Translations under genes and position numbers: made by a program
Source of the DNA: Escherichia phage F2
Sequence record: NC_054913.1
Strand: one strand, 5' to 3'
Length of the DNA: 64,000 bases
Notes under the pieces: generated by a model
Database searches by the model: none
Told to the model about the DNA's origin: nothing
The model's input: only the letters and a program-made list of their open reading frames with translations
Part shown: piece by piece, positions 511 to 27,348 of the stretch
Position numbering within the stretch: position 1 is the stretch's first letter
Layout: each line of letters starts with the position of its first letter

Positions 511-1146
511 ATGAAAACTACTCCTATTACTATCGCTATTGACGCAATCATAAAACAAGCTTCTTCTTTGGCCGCTATGGCCAAAGTAATTAGTCAAAAC
601 CCTGCTCGTTATAATGCTATTCTAGAAACTCTTCGACGCCCAGGACTTAGTAATTATGAAAGCCGAGTAATTATTACAGGTGTTGGTAAGAATGCTAATA
701 TTGCAACTAAAGCTTCTGAGACATTTGCTTCACTCGGTATCCCGAGTATGTACTTGAACACTGGACATTATTCTCACGGTGATGCAGGATTCATTGCGCC
801 TAATGATGTGTTGATTCATATTAGTCGTTCTGGTAAAACTGAAGAAATGATAGGCGTGGCTAAGCATCTTAAAATGATTCGTCCGAACGTCAAACAGATT
901 CTGTTGCATTGTAACCCGGACATTCCACAAGAATACGAAGCTCTTTTTGATTATACGTTCTGTACAGGCATCGCAGTAGAGGTTGATGAGAATTCTCTGG
1001 CTCCGACCATGTCCACTACATTGTTGTTAGCGCTTATCGATACGTTTGCTATCAACCTTTCGTCTGAACGTGGATTTACCTCTAATGACTTCCTTAAGTT
1101 CCACCCTGGCGGTGCACTAGGTGCCATGTTACGAGGCGAACAATGA
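511..1146 (+). CDS. SIS-domain sugar-phosphate isomerase, KdsD/GutQ-like (arabinose-5-phosphate isomerase type, no CBS domains)
   Basis: ITGVGKNANIATKASETFASLGIPSMYLNTGHYSHGDAGF...HISRSGKTEEM...LAPTMSTTLLLALIDTF...FHPGGALG aligns motif-for-motif with the KdsD SIS domain (GMGKSG..FASTGTPS..HGDLG..ISNSGES..LAPTSSTT..SHPGGALG). Confidence 0.8.
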   Translation: MKTTPITIAIDAIIKQASSLAAMAKVISQNPARYNAILETLRRPGLSNYESRVIITGVGKNANIATKASETFASLGIPSMYLNTGHYSHGDAGFIAPNDVLIHISRSGKTEEMIGVAKHLKMIRPNVKQILLHCNPDIPQEYEALFDYTFCTGIAVEVDENSLAPTMSTTLLLALIDTFAINLSSERGFTSNDFLKFHPGGALGAMLRGEQ

Positions 1147-1286
1147 AAGCAATAACAATAGGACTTTTACTATTGATGCTTGTCATGACTATCTACTGGA
1201 GCTTAACGGCTCCAGTAATGATTCCGACTCTTATAATCGGATGGATTATGATTGGACTACAAGCAAAGTATGAATGCTTTAACTAG
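1143..1286 (+). CDS. small hydrophobic membrane peptide (47 aa), below ORF-track cutoff
   Basis: ATG overlaps stop of upstream gene (ATGA); translation MKAITIGLLLLMLVMTIYWSLTAPVMIPTLIIGWIMIGLQAKYECFN predicts two TM helices; T4 has small membrane proteins (imm) near gene 43. Confidence 0.3.
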   Translation: MKAITIGLLLLMLVMTIYWSLTAPVMIPTLIIGWIMIGLQAKYECFN

Positions 1287-1327: not shown

Positions 1328-3013
1328 ATGAAAAAAGCTGTTATTCTTGGTGCTGGACTGGCAACTCGTTTGTATCCAATAACGCATCATATTCCTAAGG
1401 TGCTTGTTAACTATAAACAAGACACTATTCTGAGCAATTTGTATACAATTTATTCTGACCTTGGCGCAGATGAAATTATTGTAGTAGTTCATTCAAAATT
1501 TGCTGAAACTGTTCGAGCTTATTGTGAGCAAGAAGGGTTCAATGTGACTATTCGTACAGTTGATGAAGCGTATGGTTCTGCTTATGCTCTTGCTAAATTG
1601 CACAAAGATTTAGACGGCCATAATGTAATTGTTAACTGGTGTGATATTATTCCTGATTTTGGTTCATGGTCTTGGAATGTTAACGCAATCTATGTTAAGG
1701 GTGACGAATGTCGATATAATTTCGACGGTGAAAATATCACTAATGTAGGTTCAACAGGTGGTAATGTTGTAGGAATTTATCAGTTCAAAGACTGGGAATT
1801 CTATATGGGTTCTACTGATGAGGAAATTCATGAATACTGCAAAGGACGTGATTTCGTAGAATTCCTTTACGGCAGCGCATTCAATAAATCAGAGCTTATG
1901 AATCTAATTGATTTAGGTGATATGCCTAAACTTGAAAAAGCTCATGAAGTTCGTGAACTTAATCGTAGTTTTAATGCAGTTGAAATTGGTGAAGAAACTG
2001 TAACTAAATTCGCATTAACCGAACAGGGCCGAGCTCTTCAGAAAGATGAGATTTCATGGTATCTTAAAGTGAAATCAGATTCAGTTCCTCAGTTAGTTTC
2101 TGTTAATGAAAATAACTTTGAAATGGAACGCATTAAAGGTAAGCCGGCATTTGAATATATTAAATCCAAATCAAGTCTTGCTCGTCCACAAATTGTTGAT
2201 GCAATTTTAGATGCACTGAAATTCAGCACAGACACTTATTTTGTAAGTCCTGAAACTGTTCGTCGTGATTTCACTAAAGAATTCTATACTAAAGTTATTG
2301 ATCGTTGTGAAAGTATTCAACCATTGATTGATTCATTTGGTAAAATCACACATGTGAACTACACTAAGATCGGACGTCTGAAGCCAATGTTGAAACAAGC
2401 TTTAGAACACCTTATTCGTTATCATAACCGTTCTCAGGGACAGTACTCTGTTATTCATGGTGACCCGAACTTCAGTAATACTATGATTACTGATAACGGC
2501 GAAGTCAAGTTTATCGACCCTCGTGGATATTTTGGTGAAACCAAGATTTACGGGCCAAAATTGTATGATGAAGCTAAAGTGCTTTACGCTGTTTCAGGTT
2601 ATGATGAATTCAACGCTAATCCGACTTGGGGACAGTTTACTATTGATGAAACAACTTGTAATGTGACTATTAACATCAATCCATTAGTTTACAAATATGG
2701 AAAGATGAGTTCGTTTAACGAGTATCATCATTTGGCAGTGGCAATTATCTGGATTGCATTAGGTGGTTATTTCAAGAATAATCCACTTAAAGCGGTAGCC
2801 GCATATTATAAAGGTATGGAACTTCTGACTAAGCAATTACGTAATATGGGCCGTGTACTTCAAGACGGCTCTATTAGTTATGACGTAGCAGAACCTGTAA
2901 CGGCTACTCTGATTACAAAAAATCCTGGTAAATGGGTACTAACTGATAAAGAAACTGGTGTTTCCTATCGTCCAATCGGTGGCGATATCACTCATCAATG
3001 GGAACGAATCTAA
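1328..3013 (+). CDS. bifunctional sugar-1-phosphate nucleotidyltransferase (N-term) / APH-type sugar kinase (C-term)
   Basis: N-terminus ILGAGLATRL is the GxGTRL signature of RmlA/GlmU-type NDP-sugar pyrophosphorylases; C-terminal region has Brenner motif VIHGDPNFSN and IDPRG typical of aminoglycoside/choline-kinase fold. Confidence 0.7.
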   Translation: MKKAVILGAGLATRLYPITHHIPKVLVNYKQDTILSNLYTIYSDLGADEIIVVVHSKFAETVRAYCEQEGFNVTIRTVDEAYGSAYALAKLHKDLDGHNVIVNWCDIIPDFGSWSWNVNAIYVKGDECRYNFDGENITNVGSTGGNVVGIYQFKDWEFYMGSTDEEIHEYCKGRDFVEFLYGSAFNKSELMNLIDLGDMPKLEKAHEVRELNRSFNAVEIGEETVTKFALTEQGRALQKDEISWYLKVKSDSVPQLVSVNENNFEMERIKGKPAFEYIKSKSSLARPQIVDAILDALKFSTDTYFVSPETVRRDFTKEFYTKVIDRCESIQPLIDSFGKITHVNYTKIGRLKPMLKQALEHLIRYHNRSQGQYSVIHGDPNFSNTMITDNGEVKFIDPRGYFGETKIYGPKLYDEAKVLYAVSGYDEFNANPTWGQFTIDETTCNVTININPLVYKYGKMSSFNEYHHLAVAIIWIALGGYFKNNPLKAVAAYYKGMELLTKQLRNMGRVLQDGSISYDVAEPVTATLITKNPGKWVLTDKETGVSYRPIGGDITHQWERI

Positions 3014-3399
3014 TGCACCGTGTAGAAAACATGCTTAATCTTTGTTTTGATGTCGACGATTGTATAACAGAGTGGAATAACAATCGTGATTACGTGAACT
3101 TCAAGCCAGACGTCGAAATGGTGACTGCCATTAATGCCCTGTATGATGCAGGGCATACCATAACGCTTTACACTGCTCGCGGTATGAAGTCAGTCGGTCC
3201 TGGTCGTATAGCAATTGACATTCTCCCAAGTCTGATTCAGAACTTGGCAAACATTGGATTGAAGTACCATAATTTGCTAACACATAAACCAGTATATGAT
3301 TGGATTATCGACGACAAAGCTATGCGTCCTGACGAATTCAAAGCTCTTATGAATAAAGGCGAATTCGAAACATTTAAATCATATAAACCGAATCTATAA
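3013..3399 (+). CDS. HAD-superfamily phosphatase (small, GmhB/KdsC-like)
   Basis: HAD motif I LCFDVDDCIT, motif II LYTAR, motif IV WIIDDK; start chosen at ATG overlapping upstream stop (TAATG). Confidence 0.6.
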   Translation: MHRVENMLNLCFDVDDCITEWNNNRDYVNFKPDVEMVTAINALYDAGHTITLYTARGMKSVGPGRIAIDILPSLIQNLANIGLKYHNLLTHKPVYDWIIDDKAMRPDEFKALMNKGEFETFKSYKPNL

Positions 3400-3446: not shown

Positions 3447-4616
3447 ATGCAAAAAATGAATACCTTTAAAATCGGAACGAATTTTGATTTAGCTCTTCTT
3501 GATAAAATCGTAGAGCTCAATAAAACTTATCCTAATAGCTTGATAAACGAAGTATACGGCTCTACAAGAGAAATGGCTTTTGTAGCAGCCAGACCTGATT
3601 TTAGGCTTCCTGACGTTGACAAAAAGATGTTAGAAGATTACGTTAAACGTTGTAACGAATTAGGTATTTGCTTTAACTATACACTCAACACGATAAATCC
3701 TGGTTCAAAAAGAGAACTAGTTGAGTGGAAGAAGAAAGCTATTCAGGACTATGTTCAGTATCTTTGGTCAATAGGCGTATGGCGTATTACTATCGCTAAC
3801 CCTGTTGTTATGGAAATTGTTCGTGAAGTCAATAAAGACATTGAGATTGAAGTTTCAACAATTCTACATGTCGATGCTGTAACTCAAATCAAATACTTGC
3901 ATGACCAATATAATATCAAAAAGGTCTGCTGTGGAATTCATAAGAACCGTTCAGTTTCTTTCCTGAAGCGTGCAGCAGAGTTTTGTAATAAGAACAATAT
4001 AATATTTGAAGTTCTTGTAAATGAGTTCTGTTCTAATGCTGGTAAAGGGTATACAACACATTGTAGCTATCGTGACTCTTGCTATATTTTCCATAGCACC
4101 GATGTTACAGTAGATGATGCCAAATCCTTAAATGGATATCCAATGCAGCACTGTATTAAAGCTCGTGATACAGACCCATTTAACTGGTTGAGAACTCGTT
4201 TTGTTCGTCCTCAAGATTTGAAACTTTATAATGATATTGGTATCACTCAATTCAAAGTTTCAGGACGTACAGGTAGCACCGACTACATTTTGAAAGTTCT
4301 TGAAGCTTACGCTTCTGAAAAGTTTGAAGGTAATTTGTTGGAATTGTGGAAGCCTTTAGAGACCATTTTCACTCTTGAAAATGAGACTGAGTTTTCACAT
4401 ACGGTAAATATTGAAACCTCTTTGTTAGATGGCTTTTTAGAAAAAAGGTGGTTCAAACATCCAGATTTCGATTGTGCTAATGAAATCTGCGGGACGACGT
4501 GTACATATTGTGAAAGATATTATAAACGTCAGTTATCTAAAAATGGGTTATCAGAAAACTCTATATCTATTATTGATATAACTAACTCTGATGACGCTTT
4601 GAGGTACCCAGAATGA
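3447..4616 (+). CDS. Cys-rich protein of unknown function (possible metal/Fe-S enzyme) in sugar module
   Basis: 389 aa ORF, consistent coding frame; cysteine clusters EFCSNAGKGYTTHCSYRDSCY and C-terminal CANEICGTTCTYC; weak resemblance to U32-type TIM-barrel enzymes, not confirmable by eye. Confidence 0.55.
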   Translation: MQKMNTFKIGTNFDLALLDKIVELNKTYPNSLINEVYGSTREMAFVAARPDFRLPDVDKKMLEDYVKRCNELGICFNYTLNTINPGSKRELVEWKKKAIQDYVQYLWSIGVWRITIANPVVMEIVREVNKDIEIEVSTILHVDAVTQIKYLHDQYNIKKVCCGIHKNRSVSFLKRAAEFCNKNNIIFEVLVNEFCSNAGKGYTTHCSYRDSCYIFHSTDVTVDDAKSLNGYPMQHCIKARDTDPFNWLRTRFVRPQDLKLYNDIGITQFKVSGRTGSTDYILKVLEAYASEKFEGNLLELWKPLETIFTLENETEFSHTVNIETSLLDGFLEKRWFKHPDFDCANEICGTTCTYCERYYKRQLSKNGLSENSISIIDITNSDDALRYPE

Positions 4617-4894
4617 TTTCTAGAAAAACTTTTAACCACCAACTTAACGAAGAGATTTTGACTATTAAAATTAACAGCAACGAACAAATTCTTAAAAAGG
4701 CCCTTATGGGCCTGTTTGAAACTAAAGCGGCTAAAGTGATTAAAGAACCTGTTCAATTGTAATACTACGCTGATGCATTTCTTCATAGTGTTCTTGGAAG
4801 TATCGATGCTGAAGCTTTACGTTATATCAACATCGCTAAGAAATTCAAATAAGCTTTATGAATTGAGTATATAATAAATTGTATTGAGGTAAAC

Positions 4895-5611
4895 ATGGGA
4901 AAACATAACACAATGAAATATATTAAAGCCGCAGATTTTCAATCCGCATTTAAAGCTGTCAATCGTGAAATTTTAGAAAACCCGGAATTCGTTACTGATT
5001 CTCGTATTGGACGTTGTAATGAAATTGGGTCTATGACAGTAGTTGTTGATACCCCTTCATCATTCAAAATGACAGACCCACGTATTAATCGCATCTCTTA
5101 TGAATATGCTGAAGATTTCTGGAAATTTATGATTTCTGGTGGTACTGATGCAGAAGAAGCATTTAAGGCATATCCTAACGTTGCTAAATTTATTTCTAAA
5201 CCTAAATCAGATGCTTTGCCTGCAAACTTCAACACTTTCTACGGTCCACGAATTGCGGCCCAGTTACCAACTCTTCTAAAAGAACTTAAAGAAAAACCTA
5301 ACTCTCGAAGAGTTGTGTTCCAAATTCTAGAAAGTTCTGATCAGGCTTTGCTTGATTCAGACGAAACACTTGAATATCCATGTACTGACTCAGTGACTTA
5401 TTATATTCGTGATGGTAAGCTTTATACCCACTGTCATATGCGTTCTCAGAACTGTGCTGTTGTTATGCAGTTGGATTTTTATCTCCAAGGAAAATTACTT
5501 CATTATATCGCTAACGAATGTGGTGTAGAAGTTGGTGATTATACTCATACCATGGTAAGTGCCCATGTGTTTGAACGTGATTTTGATTATGTTAAAGGAT
5601 TCCTTGTCTAA
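4895..5611 (+). CDS. 42: dCMP hydroxymethylase (thymidylate-synthase superfamily)
   Basis: NSRRVVFQI...YPCTDSVTYYIRDGKLYTHCHMRSQNCAVVMQLDF parallels TS catalytic region (DSRRII...PCHxxxQFYVxDGKL...RSxD) but is distinct from td at 53514; syntenic with T4 gene 42; SD GAGGT upstream. Confidence 0.75.
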   Translation: MGKHNTMKYIKAADFQSAFKAVNREILENPEFVTDSRIGRCNEIGSMTVVVDTPSSFKMTDPRINRISYEYAEDFWKFMISGGTDAEEAFKAYPNVAKFISKPKSDALPANFNTFYGPRIAAQLPTLLKELKEKPNSRRVVFQILESSDQALLDSDETLEYPCTDSVTYYIRDGKLYTHCHMRSQNCAVVMQLDFYLQGKLLHYIANECGVEVGDYTHTMVSAHVFERDFDYVKGFLV

Positions 5612-6510
5612 TGGCTATTTTCCGCGTACCTATCTTGAGTATGCGGTCTTATGAAACTGGACAGTATGCTATCCTTAAGGATGGCAACTTCCAACTTCAT
5701 TTGCACCGTGCTAATCCGGGTGATGTGATTACATATCCACGTAATGCATCTGATATTAAAGAATGCGAACGTCTTTTCCCAGAATTTAAGTTTGTTCCAT
5801 TATGGTATAAAGATAACGCATATAACACTCGTAAATATTTCTGGTCTGAAAATGAATTTGTGGTTGATTCATTAATTGATTATTATGATTGTGATTTTCT
5901 AATCACAGATATCACTGGATATGACGGCAATTTTGACGTAGAATTCAATTTCAATATCACTGCAGACCCTAATAAACCACGTTTTTATATTGACGAATTC
6001 TTAAAAACCGACATGTTGTCTGTTAATCGTTCACTTCAAACTACTGTGTTGAATGAACGTCAAAAAGAAGTGCTGGTTAACGCAGGTGCAGATGGTAATA
6101 AGATTATCGTAACGCAGAAAGTTATACGTCCTTCCATCATGCAGCGTCTTGTAGGTGATTTGGCTCCTATTCATCTAGATGGTATTTTTCATCCATTTCG
6201 AATTAGTGACCCGTGCTATCGTTTTGAACAAGTGGTTGAATGTGCAATTCAATTAGGTCAACCGCTTTATATAACCGATCCAAATAATAGCTTCGACAGA
6301 AATAAGTATCCTGAAGAAGCGCTGATTCGAATTTTTAAACCAACTAAAACTGAGTACTATCAAATTCTTAAAGGACGTCCGAAGATTCAATACTTCGAAA
6401 ATCCTGAAGAAGTATTCCATCCAGGTCTTGGCGAGTTCATCTACTTTAATGCTTTAATTTCTTCGCCGTATAATATACCTAAATATGAAGATGTCGTAAT
6501 CGAGGAATAA
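5611..6510 (+). CDS. hypothetical protein occupying the T4 beta-glucosyltransferase position
   Basis: 299 aa ORF, start overlaps stop of gene 42 (TAATG); no motif I recognise; not similar to remembered T4 beta-gt. Confidence 0.5.
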   Translation: MAIFRVPILSMRSYETGQYAILKDGNFQLHLHRANPGDVITYPRNASDIKECERLFPEFKFVPLWYKDNAYNTRKYFWSENEFVVDSLIDYYDCDFLITDITGYDGNFDVEFNFNITADPNKPRFYIDEFLKTDMLSVNRSLQTTVLNERQKEVLVNAGADGNKIIVTQKVIRPSIMQRLVGDLAPIHLDGIFHPFRISDPCYRFEQVVECAIQLGQPLYITDPNNSFDRNKYPEEALIRIFKPTKTEYYQILKGRPKIQYFENPEEVFHPGLGEFIYFNALISSPYNIPKYEDVVIEE

Positions 6511-6511
6511 A

Positions 6512-7060
6512 ATGGCTAAAATTATTTTAGTAGATGGCCCGGATAATGCTGGTAAAACAACTTTCATTAATGACATAATGGAAATTAGTGAAAGATATGT
6601 AAAGATTGATTTCCCTAAACGAACAGTTGATGGACGTTTCGATGTTAAGTCTCGAAATGAAGTTGGCTGTTTCGAAACGATGTTGAATTATTTAGACCCT
6701 ACTAAGATTTATCTGTTAGACCGTGGATATATTAGTAACTGGGTTTATGGACGTATTCGACAAGATGCGGACTCGGTTCTTGACGTTTATGAACAGGATT
6801 ATGTTCGTCTTTGCCAAAACCATGATGTGTTCACAATTATTTTAACACGTAACGAAATGACTGAAAGTTTTGAAGACGACCTTATTACTTTGTCTTCATT
6901 CAGGTTTAATACAGTCATTTCGTATTTTGAAGAGTTTGCAATTCATAACGAAATCCAAACGTATCAATTACTTAATCATGATGGTGCTAACAAAGTTATA
7001 GGATTTAATGCAAGCGAACGTAATAATTTGATTACAGAAATTATCAAATGGGCTCGTTAA
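6512..7060 (+). CDS. P-loop nucleoside/nucleotide kinase-like protein (thymidylate-kinase fold)
   Basis: Walker A ILVDGPDNAGKTT at N-terminus, DRGY lid-like segment; resembles dTMP kinase/dNK family layout. Confidence 0.55.
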   Translation: MAKIILVDGPDNAGKTTFINDIMEISERYVKIDFPKRTVDGRFDVKSRNEVGCFETMLNYLDPTKIYLLDRGYISNWVYGRIRQDADSVLDVYEQDYVRLCQNHDVFTIILTRNEMTESFEDDLITLSSFRFNTVISYFEEFAIHNEIQTYQLLNHDGANKVIGFNASERNNLITEIIKWAR

Positions 7061-12156: not shown

Positions 12157-12450
12157 ATGAAAAAGTTATCATTGGCAGCAATCTTACTTGCGGTATCATG
12201 TGCACCAGCTCCAGTTACAGCAGGTTATGATAAAGACCTCTGTGAGTGGTCAATGACTGCAAATCAAGAAGATGTTGAACAACAAATCTTCTCTGATATC
12301 ATGAACATCACTAAACGAGACCGTCCTAATATGGTTAATAAAGTTGTTGAACAACTTAAGTCTGGTGGTATTATGCAGTACAATTATGTTTTGTATTGTG
12401 ACCCTAATTTCGATAACAAAGATATCGTAACCGAAATCACAGGTGAATAA
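12157..12450 (+). CDS. sp: secreted periplasmic protein, spackle-like (superinfection exclusion/lysozyme inhibitor) by size and position
   Basis: 97 aa with cleavable signal peptide MKKLSLAAILLAVSCAPAPVTA; T4 sp is a 97-aa periplasmic protein in the 41-61 interval. Confidence 0.5.
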   Translation: MKKLSLAAILLAVSCAPAPVTAGYDKDLCEWSMTANQEDVEQQIFSDIMNITKRDRPNMVNKVVEQLKSGGIMQYNYVLYCDPNFDNKDIVTEITGE

Positions 12451-12451
12451 T

Positions 12452-13102
12452 ATGATTTATTACATGCACAAAAACGCACCATTTAAATATGGTAAATTTC
12501 CTAATGCACAATGTTATAATATAACGCCGAATGAAAATAATAACGGATACCGTATTGGTGTAATTTTTGTAATTGTTAAAGATAACGAAATCGTTGCCTG
12601 GGCAGATTTTAAAGGTACAACATATGATGTTAATCCTGTGCCTTTCACATATTACAATATAATGGATTTGGCATATGATTATAATTGGTTTACTCATGAC
12701 ACGTTGGCTCATATTGAAGGTGTAGGATTTGACATCTCTTATTCTAGCTATTCATTATGTCCTATGAGCCGAGCTCACGGTAAAGATGTATCATATCTTT
12801 CAATTCGGAAACGTGTAAACTTCAAACGTAGTACAGAGTATGTTGGTGGACTCTTTGTTAAAGATAATAAAATAACCCGTATTAGTTATCCTTTAAGTGT
12901 AGGTCAAAAAGATGTTGATGTTGATTTAGACTTAACTGAAAGTAACATTAATCGTATTGCTTCTGTATATTTTGATATCGATGAAAAAATTGTAGTGTGT
13001 GGATACGAATTACCACCTGAAGAAAAGGCTGAAACAATTGAAGTCGAATTAGAAATTTCTGTTGATGACCAAATATTTAACGCATTTATGAATCGAGGTT
13101 AA
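12452..13102 (+). CDS. hypothetical protein
   Basis: ORF with SD AGGTGA; no recognised motif. Confidence 0.5.
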   Translation: MIYYMHKNAPFKYGKFPNAQCYNITPNENNNGYRIGVIFVIVKDNEIVAWADFKGTTYDVNPVPFTYYNIMDLAYDYNWFTHDTLAHIEGVGFDISYSSYSLCPMSRAHGKDVSYLSIRKRVNFKRSTEYVGGLFVKDNKITRISYPLSVGQKDVDVDLDLTESNINRIASVYFDIDEKIVVCGYELPPEEKAETIEVELEISVDDQIFNAFMNRG

Positions 13103-26247: not shown

Positions 26248-27348
26248 ATGAAAGTTATGTTTATCCCATCTCGTGCAGTCCCGTTTAATCCTGACCGTGT
26301 ACAAGGTGGCCTTGAAGCAGTACATTTAAATGTGTTGAAATATCTTGTGTCCATCGGCGCTGATATTGATTATATCGGCTTTGATAATGACACGTTTGGT
26401 GATTGGAAAGTTACACACCATCCTGTTGGTCATCTGACTAAATTCAGTCTAGGTATGAGTTATACTATGGCTCGTAAGATTGTTGAACTAGCCGGCATCC
26501 ATGAATACGATTTTGTTGTTACTATGGAACCGACTAAACTAACCGTTCAGGCAATTAAAGACGCAGGTCTCTCTAAAGTTCATAAGAATTTTATGGCAAC
26601 ACCATTTGAACCGGTATCTCGTGGCATTGTTCAAATTTGGGACCAGACTATTCAAATTCATAAGAATGGTGGTAAGAGTTATGCTCCTACTAAAGCCTTC
26701 CGTGAATTTGAACGCAAATATTGTTATATGACTTCAGGTCTGACTGACAAAATTGATTATGATTATTGGCGAGCAAATCCGTTGTTTGAAGCCGAAGATT
26801 ATCCGGTTATTTGTTTGAATGAGAAACCTGAAGTTCTTCCGGCGACTGATCTGATTATTAGTGCACAACGTTATGACACTAAAATGCGTCGCACTGATGT
26901 TGCTCTTGAAGCAATTAAAGCACTAGGCGAAAATGGTGTAGGATACTGTCCAAGCAAATGGGCACCACCAGCTAAATATCCTGTTATTATTGATGCTCCA
27001 CACAGTGAAATCATGGAACGTCTTAAAACAGCTAAAGCACTTATTAATACTTGTCCTGACACAGGTACAGTAGAGAATAGTTCTATTGAAGCCATCTCTA
27101 AAGGTGTCCCTGTAATCCAGTTAGTTTTTAAGGATTATCCTCATGCGACATTTGAATACGACCCAGATACTGTGCGTGTAGAAATTGATTCCTCTACTCC
27201 TAAGAAAGAAGTAGTTGCGCTTTACACAAAAGCTGTATTAGAATTCACTGATACATACGAAGCTCGAGTTAAACGTGCTGAAGCAGTATGGAAGAAGTAT
27301 AACCGAGATGCAGTTGTTGCGATGTGGGATAAAATCTTCACAGCGTAA
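26248..27348 (+). CDS. GT-B-like glycosyltransferase candidate (possible DNA sugar transferase)
   Basis: N-terminal VQGGLEAVHLNVLKYLVSIGADI and C-terminal TGTVENSSIEAISKGVPVIQ resemble GT4-family GG motif and E-x7-E donor-binding motif; located between 39 and rIIA. Confidence 0.55.
   Translation: MKVMFIPSRAVPFNPDRVQGGLEAVHLNVLKYLVSIGADIDYIGFDNDTFGDWKVTHHPVGHLTKFSLGMSYTMARKIVELAGIHEYDFVVTMEPTKLTVQAIKDAGLSKVHKNFMATPFEPVSRGIVQIWDQTIQIHKNGGKSYAPTKAFREFERKYCYMTSGLTDKIDYDYWRANPLFEAEDYPVICLNEKPEVLPATDLIISAQRYDTKMRRTDVALEAIKALGENGVGYCPSKWAPPAKYPVIIDAPHSEIMERLKTAKALINTCPDTGTVENSSIEAISKGVPVIQLVFKDYPHATFEYDPDTVRVEIDSSTPKKEVVALYTKAVLEFTDTYEARVKRAEAVWKKYNRDAVVAMWDKIFTA

What the first reader, a model, noticed from the sequence alone, without database searches (positions are those of the whole stretch)
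1328..3013. Fused nucleotidyltransferase-kinase: a one-protein salvage-type sugar activator
Anomeric kinase plus pyrophosphorylase in a single polypeptide is uncommon; known analogues (fucokinase/GDP-fucose pyrophosphorylase, LicA/LicC, AmgK/MurU) use different kinase folds or separate genes. This enzyme would set the sugar and nucleotide specificity of the whole module.
Basis: partly seen in the sequence, partly recalled or inferred. Interest (0 to 1): 0.7.

Follow-up and report, generated by a model that had tools for sequence, protein, structure and literature searches.

The report
Known phage arabinose-activating fusion enzyme (AfhE)
This gene of an RB69-like coliphage really does encode a nucleotidyltransferase fused to a sugar kinase, but it is already published (RB69 gp52:53, AfhE of phage HY126) as the enzyme that helps turn arabinose 5-phosphate into UDP-arabinose for decorating the phage's DNA, so it is not new.

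Summary
Window 1328..3013 (+) is a real 561-aa gene with an N-terminal sugar-1-phosphate nucleotidyltransferase domain and a C-terminal choline-kinase/APH-fold kinase domain.

The window is a Mosigvirus (RB69-like T4-type coliphage). The protein is 100% identical to that of phage JS09 and shares a 90% cluster with RB69ORF053c.

The gene is already in the literature:
- Thomas 2018 described RB69 ORF53_52c.
- Lee 2026 described RB69 gp52:53 and reports that He et al. 2026 characterised AfhE of phage HY126 biochemically.

The pathway, as Lee reports it, runs in four steps:
1. A phage SIS isomerase converts Ru5P to D-arabinose 5-phosphate.
2. The kinase domain makes arabinofuranose 1,5-bisphosphate.
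3. A separate HAD phosphatase (the next gene) removes the 5-phosphate.
4. The nucleotidyltransferase domain makes UDP-arabinofuranose, which is used to arabinosylate 5-hydroxycytosine in the DNA.

- The pathway is de novo, not salvage.
- One protein does not suffice.
- The kinase fold is the same as in LicA, NahK and MtnK, not a different one.

The logic copies HldE/GmhA/GmhB of ADP-heptose synthesis, using unrelated folds.

Novelty: already known. Interest: low.

Two side leads came up. The neighbouring U32-family gene may be an O2-independent cytosine hydroxylase. Giant viruses carry the four activities fused in one protein.

The parts
1328..3013 (+). The gene in question: 561-aa bifunctional nucleotidyltransferase-kinase. 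It is the orthologue of RB69 ORF53_52c / gp52:53, and presumably of HY126 AfhE.
   Evidence: ORF. RBS and overlapping stop/start. 99% DNA identity in >150 Mosigvirus genomes. Same 90% cluster as RB69ORF053c and 100% identical to the JS09 protein. Literature.
1328..1942 (+). N-terminal domain (residues 1-205): sugar-1-phosphate nucleotidyltransferase (pyrophosphorylase).
   Evidence: Pfam PF00483, E 8.5e-10. PDB profile hits HddC 3e-12 and LicC 8e-11. Foldseek hits MurU, RmlA, LicC, HddC and IPCT at E about 1e-8. Invariant G10, R14, T19, K24 (the GxGxR...PK signature), G83, D106, D195, G197, D198, K201.
1943..2848 (+). C-terminal kinase domain (residues about 206-507), choline-kinase/APH (eukaryotic-like kinase) fold.
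2849..3010 (+). C-terminal tail of about 55 residues (508-561), present only in the phage-type homologues. Role unknown.
   Evidence: Alignment A1: the tail is absent in distant homologues P0082-P0120. The model has lower confidence here, pLDDT 72-84.
511..1146 (+). SIS-domain arabinose-5-phosphate isomerase (RB69 gp55). It supplies the kinase substrate from ribulose 5-phosphate.
   Evidence: Pfam SIS 1.7e-10. NCBIfam KpsF/GutQ 2.2e-32 and KdsD 1.2e-30. PHROG 'arabinose 5-phosphate isomerase'. 32% identical to the SIS domain of the four-domain fusion P0084, E 5e-29.
1143..1286 (+). Conserved 47-aa hydrophobic small ORF inside the module. Function unknown.
   Evidence: Sequence. Annotated CDS in Bas46. 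PHROG 3610, E 4.5e-27.
2998..3399 (+). HAD-type phosphatase (RB69 gp51, AfhF orthologue). It removes the 5-phosphate from arabinofuranose 1,5-bisphosphate. The real start is probably ATG 3013.
   Evidence: NCBIfam TIGR01689 capsule-biosynthesis phosphatase 4.6e-13. DxD motif FDVDDC in the sequence. 128/129 identical to PDB 9IQW. Function as reported.
3447..4616 (+). Peptidase-U32-family protein (RB69 gp50). Its role in the module is unassigned. See Noticed in passing.
   Evidence: Pfam PF01136, E 6.4e-11. Labelled only 'sugar or heterocycle reductase' in Lee et al..
4895..5611 (+). Thymidylate-synthase homologue: 5-hydroxy-dCMP synthase (RB69 gp48). It makes the acceptor base.
   Evidence: Pfam Thymidylat_synt 2.2e-15. 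234/237 identical to PDB 9IQC/9IR2. Experimental function.
5611..6510 (+). Arabinosyltransferase 1 candidate (RB69 gp46:47). It would use the UDP-arabinose.
   Evidence: Position and length match RB69 gp46:47 as described. PHROG 3891. No Pfam hit.
6512..7060 (+). Thymidylate-kinase-like nucleotide kinase (RB69 gp45).
   Evidence: PHROG 761 thymidylate kinase 4.3e-45. Table 1 of Lee et al..
26248..27348 (+). Second arabinosyltransferase (RB69 ORF003c), far from the module, between topoisomerase gp39 and rIIA.
   Evidence: 99.2% identical to RB69ORF003c. Neighbouring genes. Role as.

Best explanation
The gene encodes the Mosigvirus orthologue of AfhE (RB69 gp52:53). It is a two-domain enzyme that catalyses the second and fourth steps of a de novo pathway from the host pentose-phosphate pool to UDP-D-arabinofuranose.

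1. The phage SIS isomerase (511..1146) converts D-ribulose 5-phosphate to D-arabinose 5-phosphate.
2. The C-terminal choline-kinase/APH-fold domain uses ATP to phosphorylate O1, giving arabinofuranose 1,5-bisphosphate.
3. The separate HAD phosphatase, encoded by the overlapping next gene (3013..3399), removes the 5-phosphate.
4. The N-terminal RmlA/MurU-like domain condenses arabinofuranose 1-phosphate with UTP, giving UDP-arabinofuranose and PPi.

Two phage glycosyltransferases (5611..6510 and 26248..27348) then arabinosylate 5-hydroxycytosine in the DNA. That base is made as 5-hydroxy-dCMP by the thymidylate-synthase homologue (4895..5611).

Shown here: the gene, its two folds, the conserved catalytic residues, its orthology to the RB69 gene and its genomic context.

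Taken from the literature at second hand: the substrates, the order of steps and the choice of UTP. He et al. 2026 is known to me only through Lee et al. 2026.

Inferred: that this exact protein behaves like HY126 AfhE.
For: Orthology:
- The protein is 100% identical to the JS09 protein and shares a 90% cluster with RB69ORF053c.
- Thomas 2018 showed that RB69 ORF053c and ORF052c are one 561-aa ORF, expressed as a single band of about 64 kDa.
- The products of the two flanking module genes are 99% identical to crystallised proteins (9IQC/9IR2/9IQU and 9IQW). These are most likely the HY126 structures that Lee et al. mention.

Independent genomic support found here:
- The neighbours are a KdsD-like isomerase and a HAD phosphatase.
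- Distant homologues (31-35% identity) are fused as HAD-SIS-NT-kinase in a single polypeptide. Their SIS domain is homologous to the phage isomerase.

Genetics:
- The 54%-identical homologue TH1_060 is essential for propagation of Shewanella phage Thanatos.
Against: - The primary biochemical paper (He et al., Nat Chem Biol 2026) and Mahler et al. 2025 could not be read. Substrates and order of steps therefore rest on a secondary account.
- Table 1 of Lee et al. still lists the older alternative: the phosphatase acts on Ara5P first and the kinase on free arabinose.
- Purified Thanatos TH1_060 made no NDP-xylose from xylose 1-phosphate with any of five NTPs. That paper attributes pyrophosphorylase activity to the glycosyltransferase homologue TH1_063 instead. 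However, xylose 1-phosphate is not the cognate furanose substrate.
- The kinase domain is below Pfam's gathering thresholds.
Confidence: 0.85

Rival explanations
1. Salvage or phosphatase-first route. The HAD phosphatase first makes free D-arabinose from arabinose 5-phosphate, or free arabinose is scavenged. The kinase domain then phosphorylates free arabinose at C1, and the transferase domain activates it, as in AmgK/MurU or FKP.
For: - Table 1 of Lee et al. still annotates gp51 as 'dephosphorylates Araf5p to Ara' and the C-terminal domain as 'phosphorylates Ara to Araf1p'.
- The closest kinase folds (NahK, MtnK, maltokinase, choline kinase) mostly act on unphosphorylated substrates.
Against: - The text of Lee et al. 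reports that He et al. showed the bisphosphate route experimentally.
- The HAD protein's structural neighbours include heptose-1,7-bisphosphate 7-phosphatase.
- The isomerase-kinase-phosphatase-transferase gene set mirrors the HldE/GmhA/GmhB logic.
- The presence of a dedicated A5P isomerase argues against scavenging.
Confidence: 0.08
2. The enzyme activates a different sugar or uses a different nucleotide in this phage, for example GDP-, CDP- or dTDP-arabinose, or another pentose.
For: - The base-recognition segment reads D79-E80-A-Y-G83-S-A. In the alignment it lines up with the EEEPLGTAG segment of GDP-mannose pyrophosphorylase, so sequence alone does not fix UTP.
- HddC, a GTP enzyme, is the best PDB profile hit.
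Against: - UDP-D-arabinose is reported for AfhE.
- Mosigvirus DNA (RB69, Bas46, NP) contains D-arabinofuranose.
- The flanking module proteins are 99% identical to the crystallised proteins I take to be from HY126.
Confidence: 0.05
3. The database annotations are right. Either the protein is a GlmU-like bifunctional enzyme, or the N-terminal domain is a GT-A glycosyltransferase that transfers the sugar to DNA.
For: - GenBank records call it 'bifunctional protein GlmU' or 'glycosyltransferase family A'.
- The Thanatos paper treats TH1_060 as a glycosyltransferase candidate.
Against: - There is no left-handed beta-helix acetyltransferase domain. The C-terminal half is a kinase.
- The N-terminal domain carries the GxGxR...K nucleotidyltransferase signature, and its best structural hits are all sugar-phosphate nucleotidyltransferases.
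- TH1_060 showed no transfer of xylose to DNA or nucleotides.
- Dedicated GT-B arabinosyltransferases exist.
Confidence: 0.02

Closest known systems
AfhE of E. coli phage HY126 / RB69 gp52:53 (ORF53_52c) / Acinetobacter phage DLP3 gp82
   Same: It is the same protein family, and for RB69 essentially the same protein: same 90% cluster, 561 aa, same NT-kinase architecture, same neighbours. DLP3-type Acinetobacter homologues are about 56% identical.
   Different: Nothing substantive. The HY126 sequence itself could not be compared. Its closeness is inferred from 99% identity of the neighbouring gene products to PDB 9IQC and 9IQW.
HldE with GmhA and GmhB (ADP-L-glycero-D-manno-heptose pathway; from established knowledge)
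   Same: The pathway logic is identical. A SIS isomerase makes an aldose phosphate, an anomeric kinase makes a bisphosphate, a HAD phosphatase removes the distal phosphate, and a nucleotidyltransferase activates the sugar. Kinase and transferase are fused in one protein and catalyse non-consecutive steps.
   Different: The folds are unrelated. HldE combines a PfkB/ribokinase-type kinase with a cytidylyltransferase-type (HIGH-motif) adenylyltransferase, in the order kinase-transferase. Here an RmlA-type transferase precedes an APH-type kinase. The sugar is a pentofuranose rather than a heptose, and the nucleotide is UDP rather than ADP.
MurU + AmgK (MurNAc recycling) and LicC + LicA (phosphocholine activation)
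   Different: These are usually separate genes. LicCA fusions exist in some bacteria, from my own knowledge and not tested here. They are true salvage pairs acting on unphosphorylated substrates in consecutive steps, with no intervening phosphatase.
FKP (L-fucokinase/GDP-fucose pyrophosphorylase) and Leishmania AFKP80 (D-arabino/L-fucokinase-pyrophosphorylase; from established knowledge)
   Same: A single polypeptide with an anomeric sugar kinase and an NDP-sugar pyrophosphorylase. AFKP80 even activates D-arabinose.
5-Methylthioribose kinase MtnK
   Different: It is a stand-alone enzyme of the methionine salvage pathway. Its 5-substituent is a methylthio group, not a phosphate. Sequence identity is only about 15%.

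Membership tests
AfhE / RB69 gp52:53 orthologous group | Full-length sequence homology to RB69 ORF53_52c (561 aa) | tested here: met
   Same 90%-identity cluster as RB69ORF053c and 100% identical to the JS09 protein. PHROG 4098 matches end to end, E 3.7e-295.
AfhE / RB69 gp52:53 orthologous group | N-terminal nucleotidyltransferase plus C-terminal kinase in one polypeptide | tested here: met
AfhE / RB69 gp52:53 orthologous group | Lies in the module between DNA polymerase and UvsX, with the A5P isomerase, HAD phosphatase, 5hodCMP synthase and arabinosyltransferase | tested here: met
   Module proteins are 99% identical to PDB 9IQC and 9IQW.
AfhE / RB69 gp52:53 orthologous group | Ara5P 1-kinase and UDP-Araf pyrophosphorylase activities | not testable with these tools
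   Reported for HY126 AfhE by He et al., as cited in Lee et al.. Not measured for this protein.
Sugar-1-phosphate nucleotidyltransferases (Pfam PF00483; RmlA/GalU/MurU type) | Pfam score above the gathering threshold | tested here: met
   39.1 bits against a cut-off of 21.2.
Sugar-1-phosphate nucleotidyltransferases (Pfam PF00483; RmlA/GalU/MurU type) | G-x-G-x-R-(x)n-K signature loop and conserved acidic residues | tested here: met
   G8-A-G10-L-A-T-R14...P23-K24, with D106, D195 and D198, invariant in 36 sequences. Mapping the Asp residues to metal ligands is inference.
Sugar-1-phosphate nucleotidyltransferases (Pfam PF00483; RmlA/GalU/MurU type) | Rossmann-like alpha/beta fold of the family | tested here: met
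   Foldseek probability 1.00 to MurU, RmlA, LicC, HddC and IPCT, with TM (target-normalised) 0.6-0.7.
Choline-kinase/APH (eukaryotic-like kinase) superfamily (Pfam PF01636 and relatives) | Pfam score above the gathering threshold | tested here: not met
   APH 14.4 bits against 23.2. Fructosamin_kin 17.1 against 22.4. EcKL 16.2 against 22. Some homologues do carry a precomputed PF01636 hit.
Choline-kinase/APH (eukaryotic-like kinase) superfamily (Pfam PF01636 and relatives) | Bilobal kinase fold | tested here: met
Choline-kinase/APH (eukaryotic-like kinase) superfamily (Pfam PF01636 and relatives) | Catalytic residues: ATP-binding Lys and Glu pair, Brenner motif HxDxxxxN, metal-binding Asp | tested here: met
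   K227, E241, H377-G-D379-P-N-F-S-N384 and D397 are all invariant. They lie in the expected secondary-structure elements.
HldE (bifunctional heptose kinase/adenylyltransferase) | PfkB/ribokinase-fold kinase domain and cytidylyltransferase-fold transferase domain | tested here: not met
   No PfkB or CTP_transf_like hit. The folds found are APH-type and RmlA-type. It works like HldE but is not a member.
FKP / AFKP80 (fucokinase-pyrophosphorylase) | GHMP-family kinase domain | tested here: not met
GlmU (the annotation in several GenBank records) | C-terminal left-handed beta-helix acetyltransferase domain | tested here: not met
   GlmU models match only residues 3-107, far below their cut-offs. 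The C-terminal half is a kinase.

The most novel reading that the evidence does not exclude
For the window gene itself I see no room for novelty beyond one detail: the unexplained phage-specific C-terminal tail of about 55 residues.

The most novel reading my evidence leaves open concerns the family. The AfhE-type NT-kinase pair may be the core of a wider, apparently undescribed de novo route to an NDP-pentofuranose outside phage DNA modification.

In giant-virus-like contigs, all four activities are fused into one polypeptide of 890-955 aa, in the order HAD phosphatase, SIS isomerase, transferase, kinase. These genes sit near glycosyltransferases, sugar epimerases and a sulfotransferase. That placement suggests they supply NDP-arabinofuranose for virion or host glycans rather than for DNA.
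Probability: 0.3. Interest if true: 0.45.

Novelty: already known. Interest (0 to 1): 0.15.

Why it matters
The enzyme is biologically interesting. It lets a phage make UDP-D-arabinofuranose, a sugar nucleotide its enterobacterial host does not have, so that every cytosine in its DNA can be hidden from restriction and CRISPR nucleases. It is also a neat case of convergent pathway design with ADP-heptose synthesis.

However, this has been published:
- 2018: the gene was recognised.
- 2025-2026: the modification was corrected to arabosyl-5-hydroxycytosine and the enzyme was characterised.

The value of this check is therefore to close the finding and to correct the annotations that circulate in GenBank and PHROGs. 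These include 'GlmU', 'hypothetical protein' and, for the phosphatase, 'phosphoheptose isomerase'.

The open questions lie next door: the role of the U32-family protein, and the role of the giant-virus fusion proteins.

Tried and rejected
1. I tried to read He et al. 2026 (Nat Chem Biol) and Mahler et al. 2025 (Cell Host Microbe) by DOI and by PubMed id. Neither is held. No supplement of Lee et al. is held either.

3. I looked for a solved AfhE structure and found none. The best PDB sequence hit is LicC, covering the N-terminal domain only.

4. The GlmU and GT-A annotations were rejected on fold and motif grounds. Membership of HldE and FKP was rejected on fold.

5. I tested whether the HAD domain of the giant-virus fusion is homologous to the phage phosphatase. 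It is not detectably so: BLASTP E 0.076, and it belongs to a different HAD subfamily. The fusions therefore support the chemistry, not orthology of that step.

6. I tested whether the small ORF after the U32 gene is a diverged chorismate mutase. There is no similarity.

7. BLASTP of the phage U32 protein against E. coli RlhA gave only a short motif match at E 0.05. The PDB sequence search for the U32 protein found nothing.

8. The tRNA scan of the window found no genes.

9. I tried to find the HY126 genome to compare AfhE directly. Only its taxonomy entry could be located.
Full report
WHAT THE WINDOW IS

The window is part of a T4-like phage genome. It opens with the C-terminus of the DNA polymerase, and UvsX and the gp41-type helicase follow.

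The 1686 bases of the finding are 95-99% identical to more than 150 phage genomes. Nearly all are Escherichia or Shigella phages of the genus Mosigvirus, the RB69 group (taxonomy of one of them).

One of these records, the BASEL phage Bas46, already annotates the gene as 'putative enzyme involved in UDP-arabinose biosynthesis'.

THE OBSERVATION

The finding's coordinates are exactly one ORF: ATG at 1328, TAA at 3011-3013, 561 aa. A GAGGA ribosome-binding site lies 8 nt upstream. The stop codon overlaps an ATG of the next gene as TAATG.

The exact protein is on record for phages JS09, p000y and others. It belongs to the same 90%-identity cluster as RB69ORF053c.

Full-length homologues occur in T4-like phages of several hosts:
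- Serratia, Enterobacter and Yersinia: 66-73% identity.
- Acinetobacter, Pseudomonas and Shewanella: 54-57%.
- Klebsiella and Proteus phages, and JS98-like coliphages: 42-44%.
- Vibrio jumbo phages: about 28%.

The ORF is therefore a conserved gene, not a chance reading frame.

THE TWO DOMAINS

N-terminal domain:
- Residues 3-99 match Pfam NTP_transferase above threshold, E 8.5e-10.
- NCBIfam shows only partial matches to sugar-1-phosphate nucleotidyltransferases (AglF, RmlA, MurU, GlmU N-terminal domain, HddC). All are confined to the first ~110 residues.

C-terminal half at the sequence level:
- Kinase families match only below their thresholds: APH 14.4 bits, fructosamine kinase 17.1, EcKL 16.2, RIO1 16.1. 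All centre on residues 350-405.
- A 36-sequence profile finds only marginal protein-kinase and RIO hits in the PDB, at E about 0.1.

Structure:
- An AlphaFold model from a 36-sequence alignment is confident, with pLDDT 92.5 and pTM 0.88.
- Foldseek against the PDB matches the N-terminal ~205 residues to MurU, RmlA, LicC, HddC and IPCT at E about 1e-8. It matches the C-terminal part to APH(2'')-IIa at E 1.3e-7.

Conserved residues, from the alignment of homologues down to 28% identity:
- Transferase signature: G10, R14, T19, K24 within LGAGLATRLYPIT..IPK.
- Further transferase residues: G83, D106, D195, G197, D198, K201.
- Kinase core: K227, E241, H377-G-D379-P-N-F-S-N384 (the Brenner motif) and I396-D397-P-R-G.

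K227 falls in a strand (224-229) and E241 in the following helix (232-247) of the model. That is what a protein-kinase-like N-lobe requires.

The observation 'fused nucleotidyltransferase-kinase' is confirmed.

WHAT IS ALREADY PUBLISHED

Thomas et al. 2018 (PMC6024577):
- They found that RB69 ORF053c and ORF052c were split by a sequencing error.
- They re-sequenced the region, defined the 561-residue ORF53_52c and expressed it as a single band of about 64 kDa.
- They proposed it as a candidate for UDP-arabinose synthesis, together with the SIS protein ORF055c.
- They noted that JS09 has the same region.

Lee et al. 2026 (PMC13326640):
- They showed that the RB69 base is not arabinosyl-hydroxymethylcytosine. 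It is beta-D-Araf-(1-3)-alpha-D-Araf linked by an ether bond to 5-hydroxy-deoxycytidine.
- The thymidylate-synthase homologue gp48 makes 5-hydroxy-dCMP using O2 and a flavin.
- For the sugar they propose Ru5P, then Araf5P (gp55), then Araf-1,5-P2 (the C-terminal domain of gp52:53), then Araf1P (gp51), then UDP-Araf (the N-terminal domain of gp52:53).
- They cite He et al. 2026 (Nat Chem Biol). [quoted passage not shown]

I could not read He et al. or Mahler et al. 2025.

HOW CLOSE HY126 IS TO THIS WINDOW

However, the PDB copy holds two sets of relevant entries:
- Entries named 'thymidylate synthase' (9IQC, 9IR2, 9IQU) are 234/237 identical to the window's thymidylate-synthase homologue.
- An entry named 'capsule biosynthesis protein' (9IQW) is 128/129 identical to the window's HAD phosphatase, starting from the ATG at 3013.

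Lee et al. say that He et al. solved a crystal structure of the HY126 hydroxylase homologue. I infer that these entries are the HY126 proteins. If so, HY126 is a Mosigvirus almost identical to this window in the module, and the window gene is, to within a few residues, AfhE itself.

No AfhE structure is in the PDB.

INDEPENDENT SUPPORT FOR A DE NOVO PATHWAY

The upstream gene (511..1146) is a KpsF/GutQ/KdsD-type arabinose-5-phosphate isomerase core: NCBIfam 2.2e-32 and 1.2e-30, and PHROG 'arabinose 5-phosphate isomerase'.

The downstream gene is a small HAD phosphatase. It matches TIGR01689 at 4.6e-13 and carries the FDVDDC motif.

Among distant homologues of the NT-kinase (31-35% identity over about 88% of its length), many are proteins of 890-955 aa that also carry HAD and SIS domains. 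A Pfam scan shows the order HAD-SIS-NT-kinase.
- The SIS part of one of them, P0084, is 32% identical to the phage isomerase, E 5e-29.
- Its HAD part belongs to a different HAD subfamily and shows no similarity to the phage phosphatase.

These fusions say that the four activities belong together. That fits a pathway starting from ribulose 5-phosphate, not scavenging of free arabinose.

In genetics, the 54%-identical homologue TH1_060 of Shewanella phage Thanatos can be inactivated only when complemented in trans.

EVIDENCE THAT DOES NOT FIT NEATLY

In the Thanatos study, purified TH1_060 formed no NDP-xylose from xylose 1-phosphate with any of five NTPs. The homologue of the 299-aa glycosyltransferase (TH1_063) was reported to form UDP-xylose. 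Xylopyranose 1-phosphate is not the cognate substrate, so this does not contradict the AfhE assignment. It remains unexplained.

Table 1 of Lee et al. keeps the earlier scheme, with the phosphatase first and the kinase acting on free arabinose, whereas their text follows He et al..

The base-recognition segment of the transferase domain (DEAYGSA) lines up with the EEEPLGTAG segment of GDP-mannose pyrophosphorylase in the alignment. A GTP enzyme, HddC, is the best profile hit. The choice of UTP therefore cannot be read from the sequence and rests on the reported biochemistry.

COMPARISON WITH KNOWN SYSTEMS

In function, the closest parallel is the ADP-heptose pathway, from established knowledge:
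- The SIS isomerase GmhA.
- The kinase domain of HldE, which makes heptose 1,7-bisphosphate.
- The HAD phosphatase GmhB.
- The adenylyltransferase domain of HldE.

The phage module has the same four chemistries and the same fusion of the two non-consecutive steps. It uses an APH-type kinase and an RmlA-type transferase in place of the PfkB and cytidylyltransferase folds. It works like HldE but is not a member.

In fold, it is a fused MurU/LicC-type transferase and LicA-type kinase.

FKP and AFKP80 are salvage enzymes with GHMP kinases and are not related.

The GenBank labels 'bifunctional protein GlmU' and 'glycosyltransferase' are wrong. So is the PHROG label 'phosphoheptose isomerase' for the phosphatase.

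VERDICT

- The feature is already known.
- Interest as a new finding is low.

SIDE LEAD 1: THE U32 PROTEIN

The gene at 3447..4616 is a peptidase-U32-family protein. Lee et al. list it only as 'sugar or heterocycle reductase' and never discuss it.

What is known about the family:
- U32 proteins are the O2-independent, prephenate-dependent hydroxylases UbiU/UbiV, TrhP (ho5U in tRNA) and RlhA. RlhA is annotated in E. coli K-12 as the '23S rRNA 5-hydroxycytidine C2501 synthase' (papers listed).
- The phage's own hydroxylase needs O2.

What I found:
- The U32 gene occurs in 220 phage records, all from facultative anaerobes, at 82% identity or more. The NT-kinase has drifted to 42-54% in some of the same phages.
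- No Acinetobacter phage appears among the listed host genera for the U32 gene, although 57 Acinetobacter phages have the NT-kinase.
- In 54 phages a chorismate mutase, the enzyme that makes prephenate, is present. In the records examined it lies next to the thymidylate-synthase homologue, and in several beside the U32 gene. Examples are Serratia LC53 and CHI14, Klebsiella, Yersinia, Proteus and Thanatos-2.
- Mosigviruses have an unrelated small ORF in that slot. In this window it is cut to 49 codons by a premature TAA, against 79 codons in Bas46.
- An alignment with UbiU, UbiV and RlhA conserves two of the Fe-S cysteines (C195, C212), with other cysteines nearby. This is inconclusive.

I suggest that the U32 protein provides an anaerobic route to 5-hydroxycytosine. 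I cannot tell whether the two unread papers already address this.

SIDE LEAD 2: THE GIANT-VIRUS FUSIONS

The HAD-SIS-NT-kinase fusion proteins lie on contigs that look like giant viruses.
- Markers include a MutS with an HNH domain, RNA polymerase Rpb2, a 1553-aa family-B DNA polymerase and dUTPase.
- They sit near a GT2 glycosyltransferase, sugar epimerases and a sulfotransferase.

Noticed in passing
window 3447..4616 (+); L005 5992-7502: The U32-family protein in the module may be an O2-independent, prephenate-dependent cytosine C5-hydroxylase, like RlhA, TrhP and UbiU/V. It would complement the O2-dependent thymidylate-synthase-like 5hodCMP synthase.

- It is at least 82% identical across 220 phage records, all from facultative anaerobes.
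- No Acinetobacter phage appears among the listed host genera, although 57 Acinetobacter phages have the NT-kinase.
- A chorismate mutase gene is present in 54 phages of other genera; in the records examined it lies next to the ThyA-like gene, and in several also beside the U32 gene.
- This is not discussed in the accessible literature. He 2026 and Mahler 2025 could not be checked.
   Followed up: partly
L002 8001-10781; L008 8001-10679; L010 8001-10862: Distant homologues of the NT-kinase are fused with a HAD phosphatase and a SIS isomerase (order HAD-SIS-NT-kinase, 890-955 aa).

- They lie on giant-virus-like contigs carrying MutS+HNH, Rpb2, a large PolB and dUTPase.
- Neighbours include GT2, epimerases and a sulfotransferase.
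- One contig carries a second, 805-aa paralogue.
- One homologue comes from a eukaryote transcriptome (P0091).

They may be a one-polypeptide NDP-arabinofuranose pathway for glycans.
   Followed up: partly
window 4613..4762 (+): The small ORF between the U32 gene and the thymidylate-synthase homologue is 79 codons in Bas46 (PHROG 8601). Here it is cut to 49 codons by a premature stop: TTG TAA against TTA GAA. It is not homologous to the chorismate mutase that occupies this slot in other genera.
   Followed up: yes
window 1143..1286 (+): A conserved 47-aa strongly hydrophobic ORF (PHROG 3610) lies between the isomerase and the NT-kinase. Its start overlaps the isomerase stop (ATGA). A small membrane protein inside a cytosolic sugar-nucleotide module is unexplained.
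   Followed up: no
window 2849..3010 (+), residues 508-561 of the NT-kinase: A C-terminal tail of about 55 residues (motif TKNPGKWxLxDxETG...W) is conserved in the closer phage and metagenomic homologues but absent from the more distant ones. The model has lower confidence here, pLDDT 72-84. Its role is unknown.
   Followed up: no
window 2998..3399 and 4895..5611: PDB entries 9IQW (named 'capsule biosynthesis protein') and 9IQC/9IR2/9IQU (named 'thymidylate synthase') are 99% identical to the window's HAD phosphatase and 5hodCMP synthase. Their deposited names hide their real functions. The 9IQW construct starts at the ATG at 3013, which suggests that is the true start.
   Followed up: yes
window 1328..3399; many GenBank records: Misleading annotations are propagated widely. 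The NT-kinase is called 'bifunctional protein GlmU', 'mannose-1-phosphate guanyltransferase' or 'hypothetical'. The HAD phosphatase is called 'phosphoheptose isomerase' (PHROG 1238), 'haloacid dehydrogenase' or 'capsule biosynthesis protein'.
   Followed up: yes
window 5611..6510 (homologue TH1_063 of Shewanella phage Thanatos): The Thanatos paper reports UDP-xylose pyrophosphorylase activity for the homologue of this GT-B-like arabinosyltransferase, and none for the NT-kinase homologue. This conflicts with the roles assigned in RB69 and HY126 and is unexplained.
   Followed up: no
window 12443..13102 (+): Pfam AdfA (anti-DarT factor A), E 2.9e-118: a known counter-defence gene of T4-like phages.
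   Followed up: no
window 26248..27348 (+): The second arabinosyltransferase (RB69ORF003c, 99.2% identical) lies about 20 kb from the module, between topoisomerase gp39 and rIIA. Its only other phage homologues, at about 42% identity, are in Acinetobacter phages, where two copies per genome occur.
   Followed up: partly
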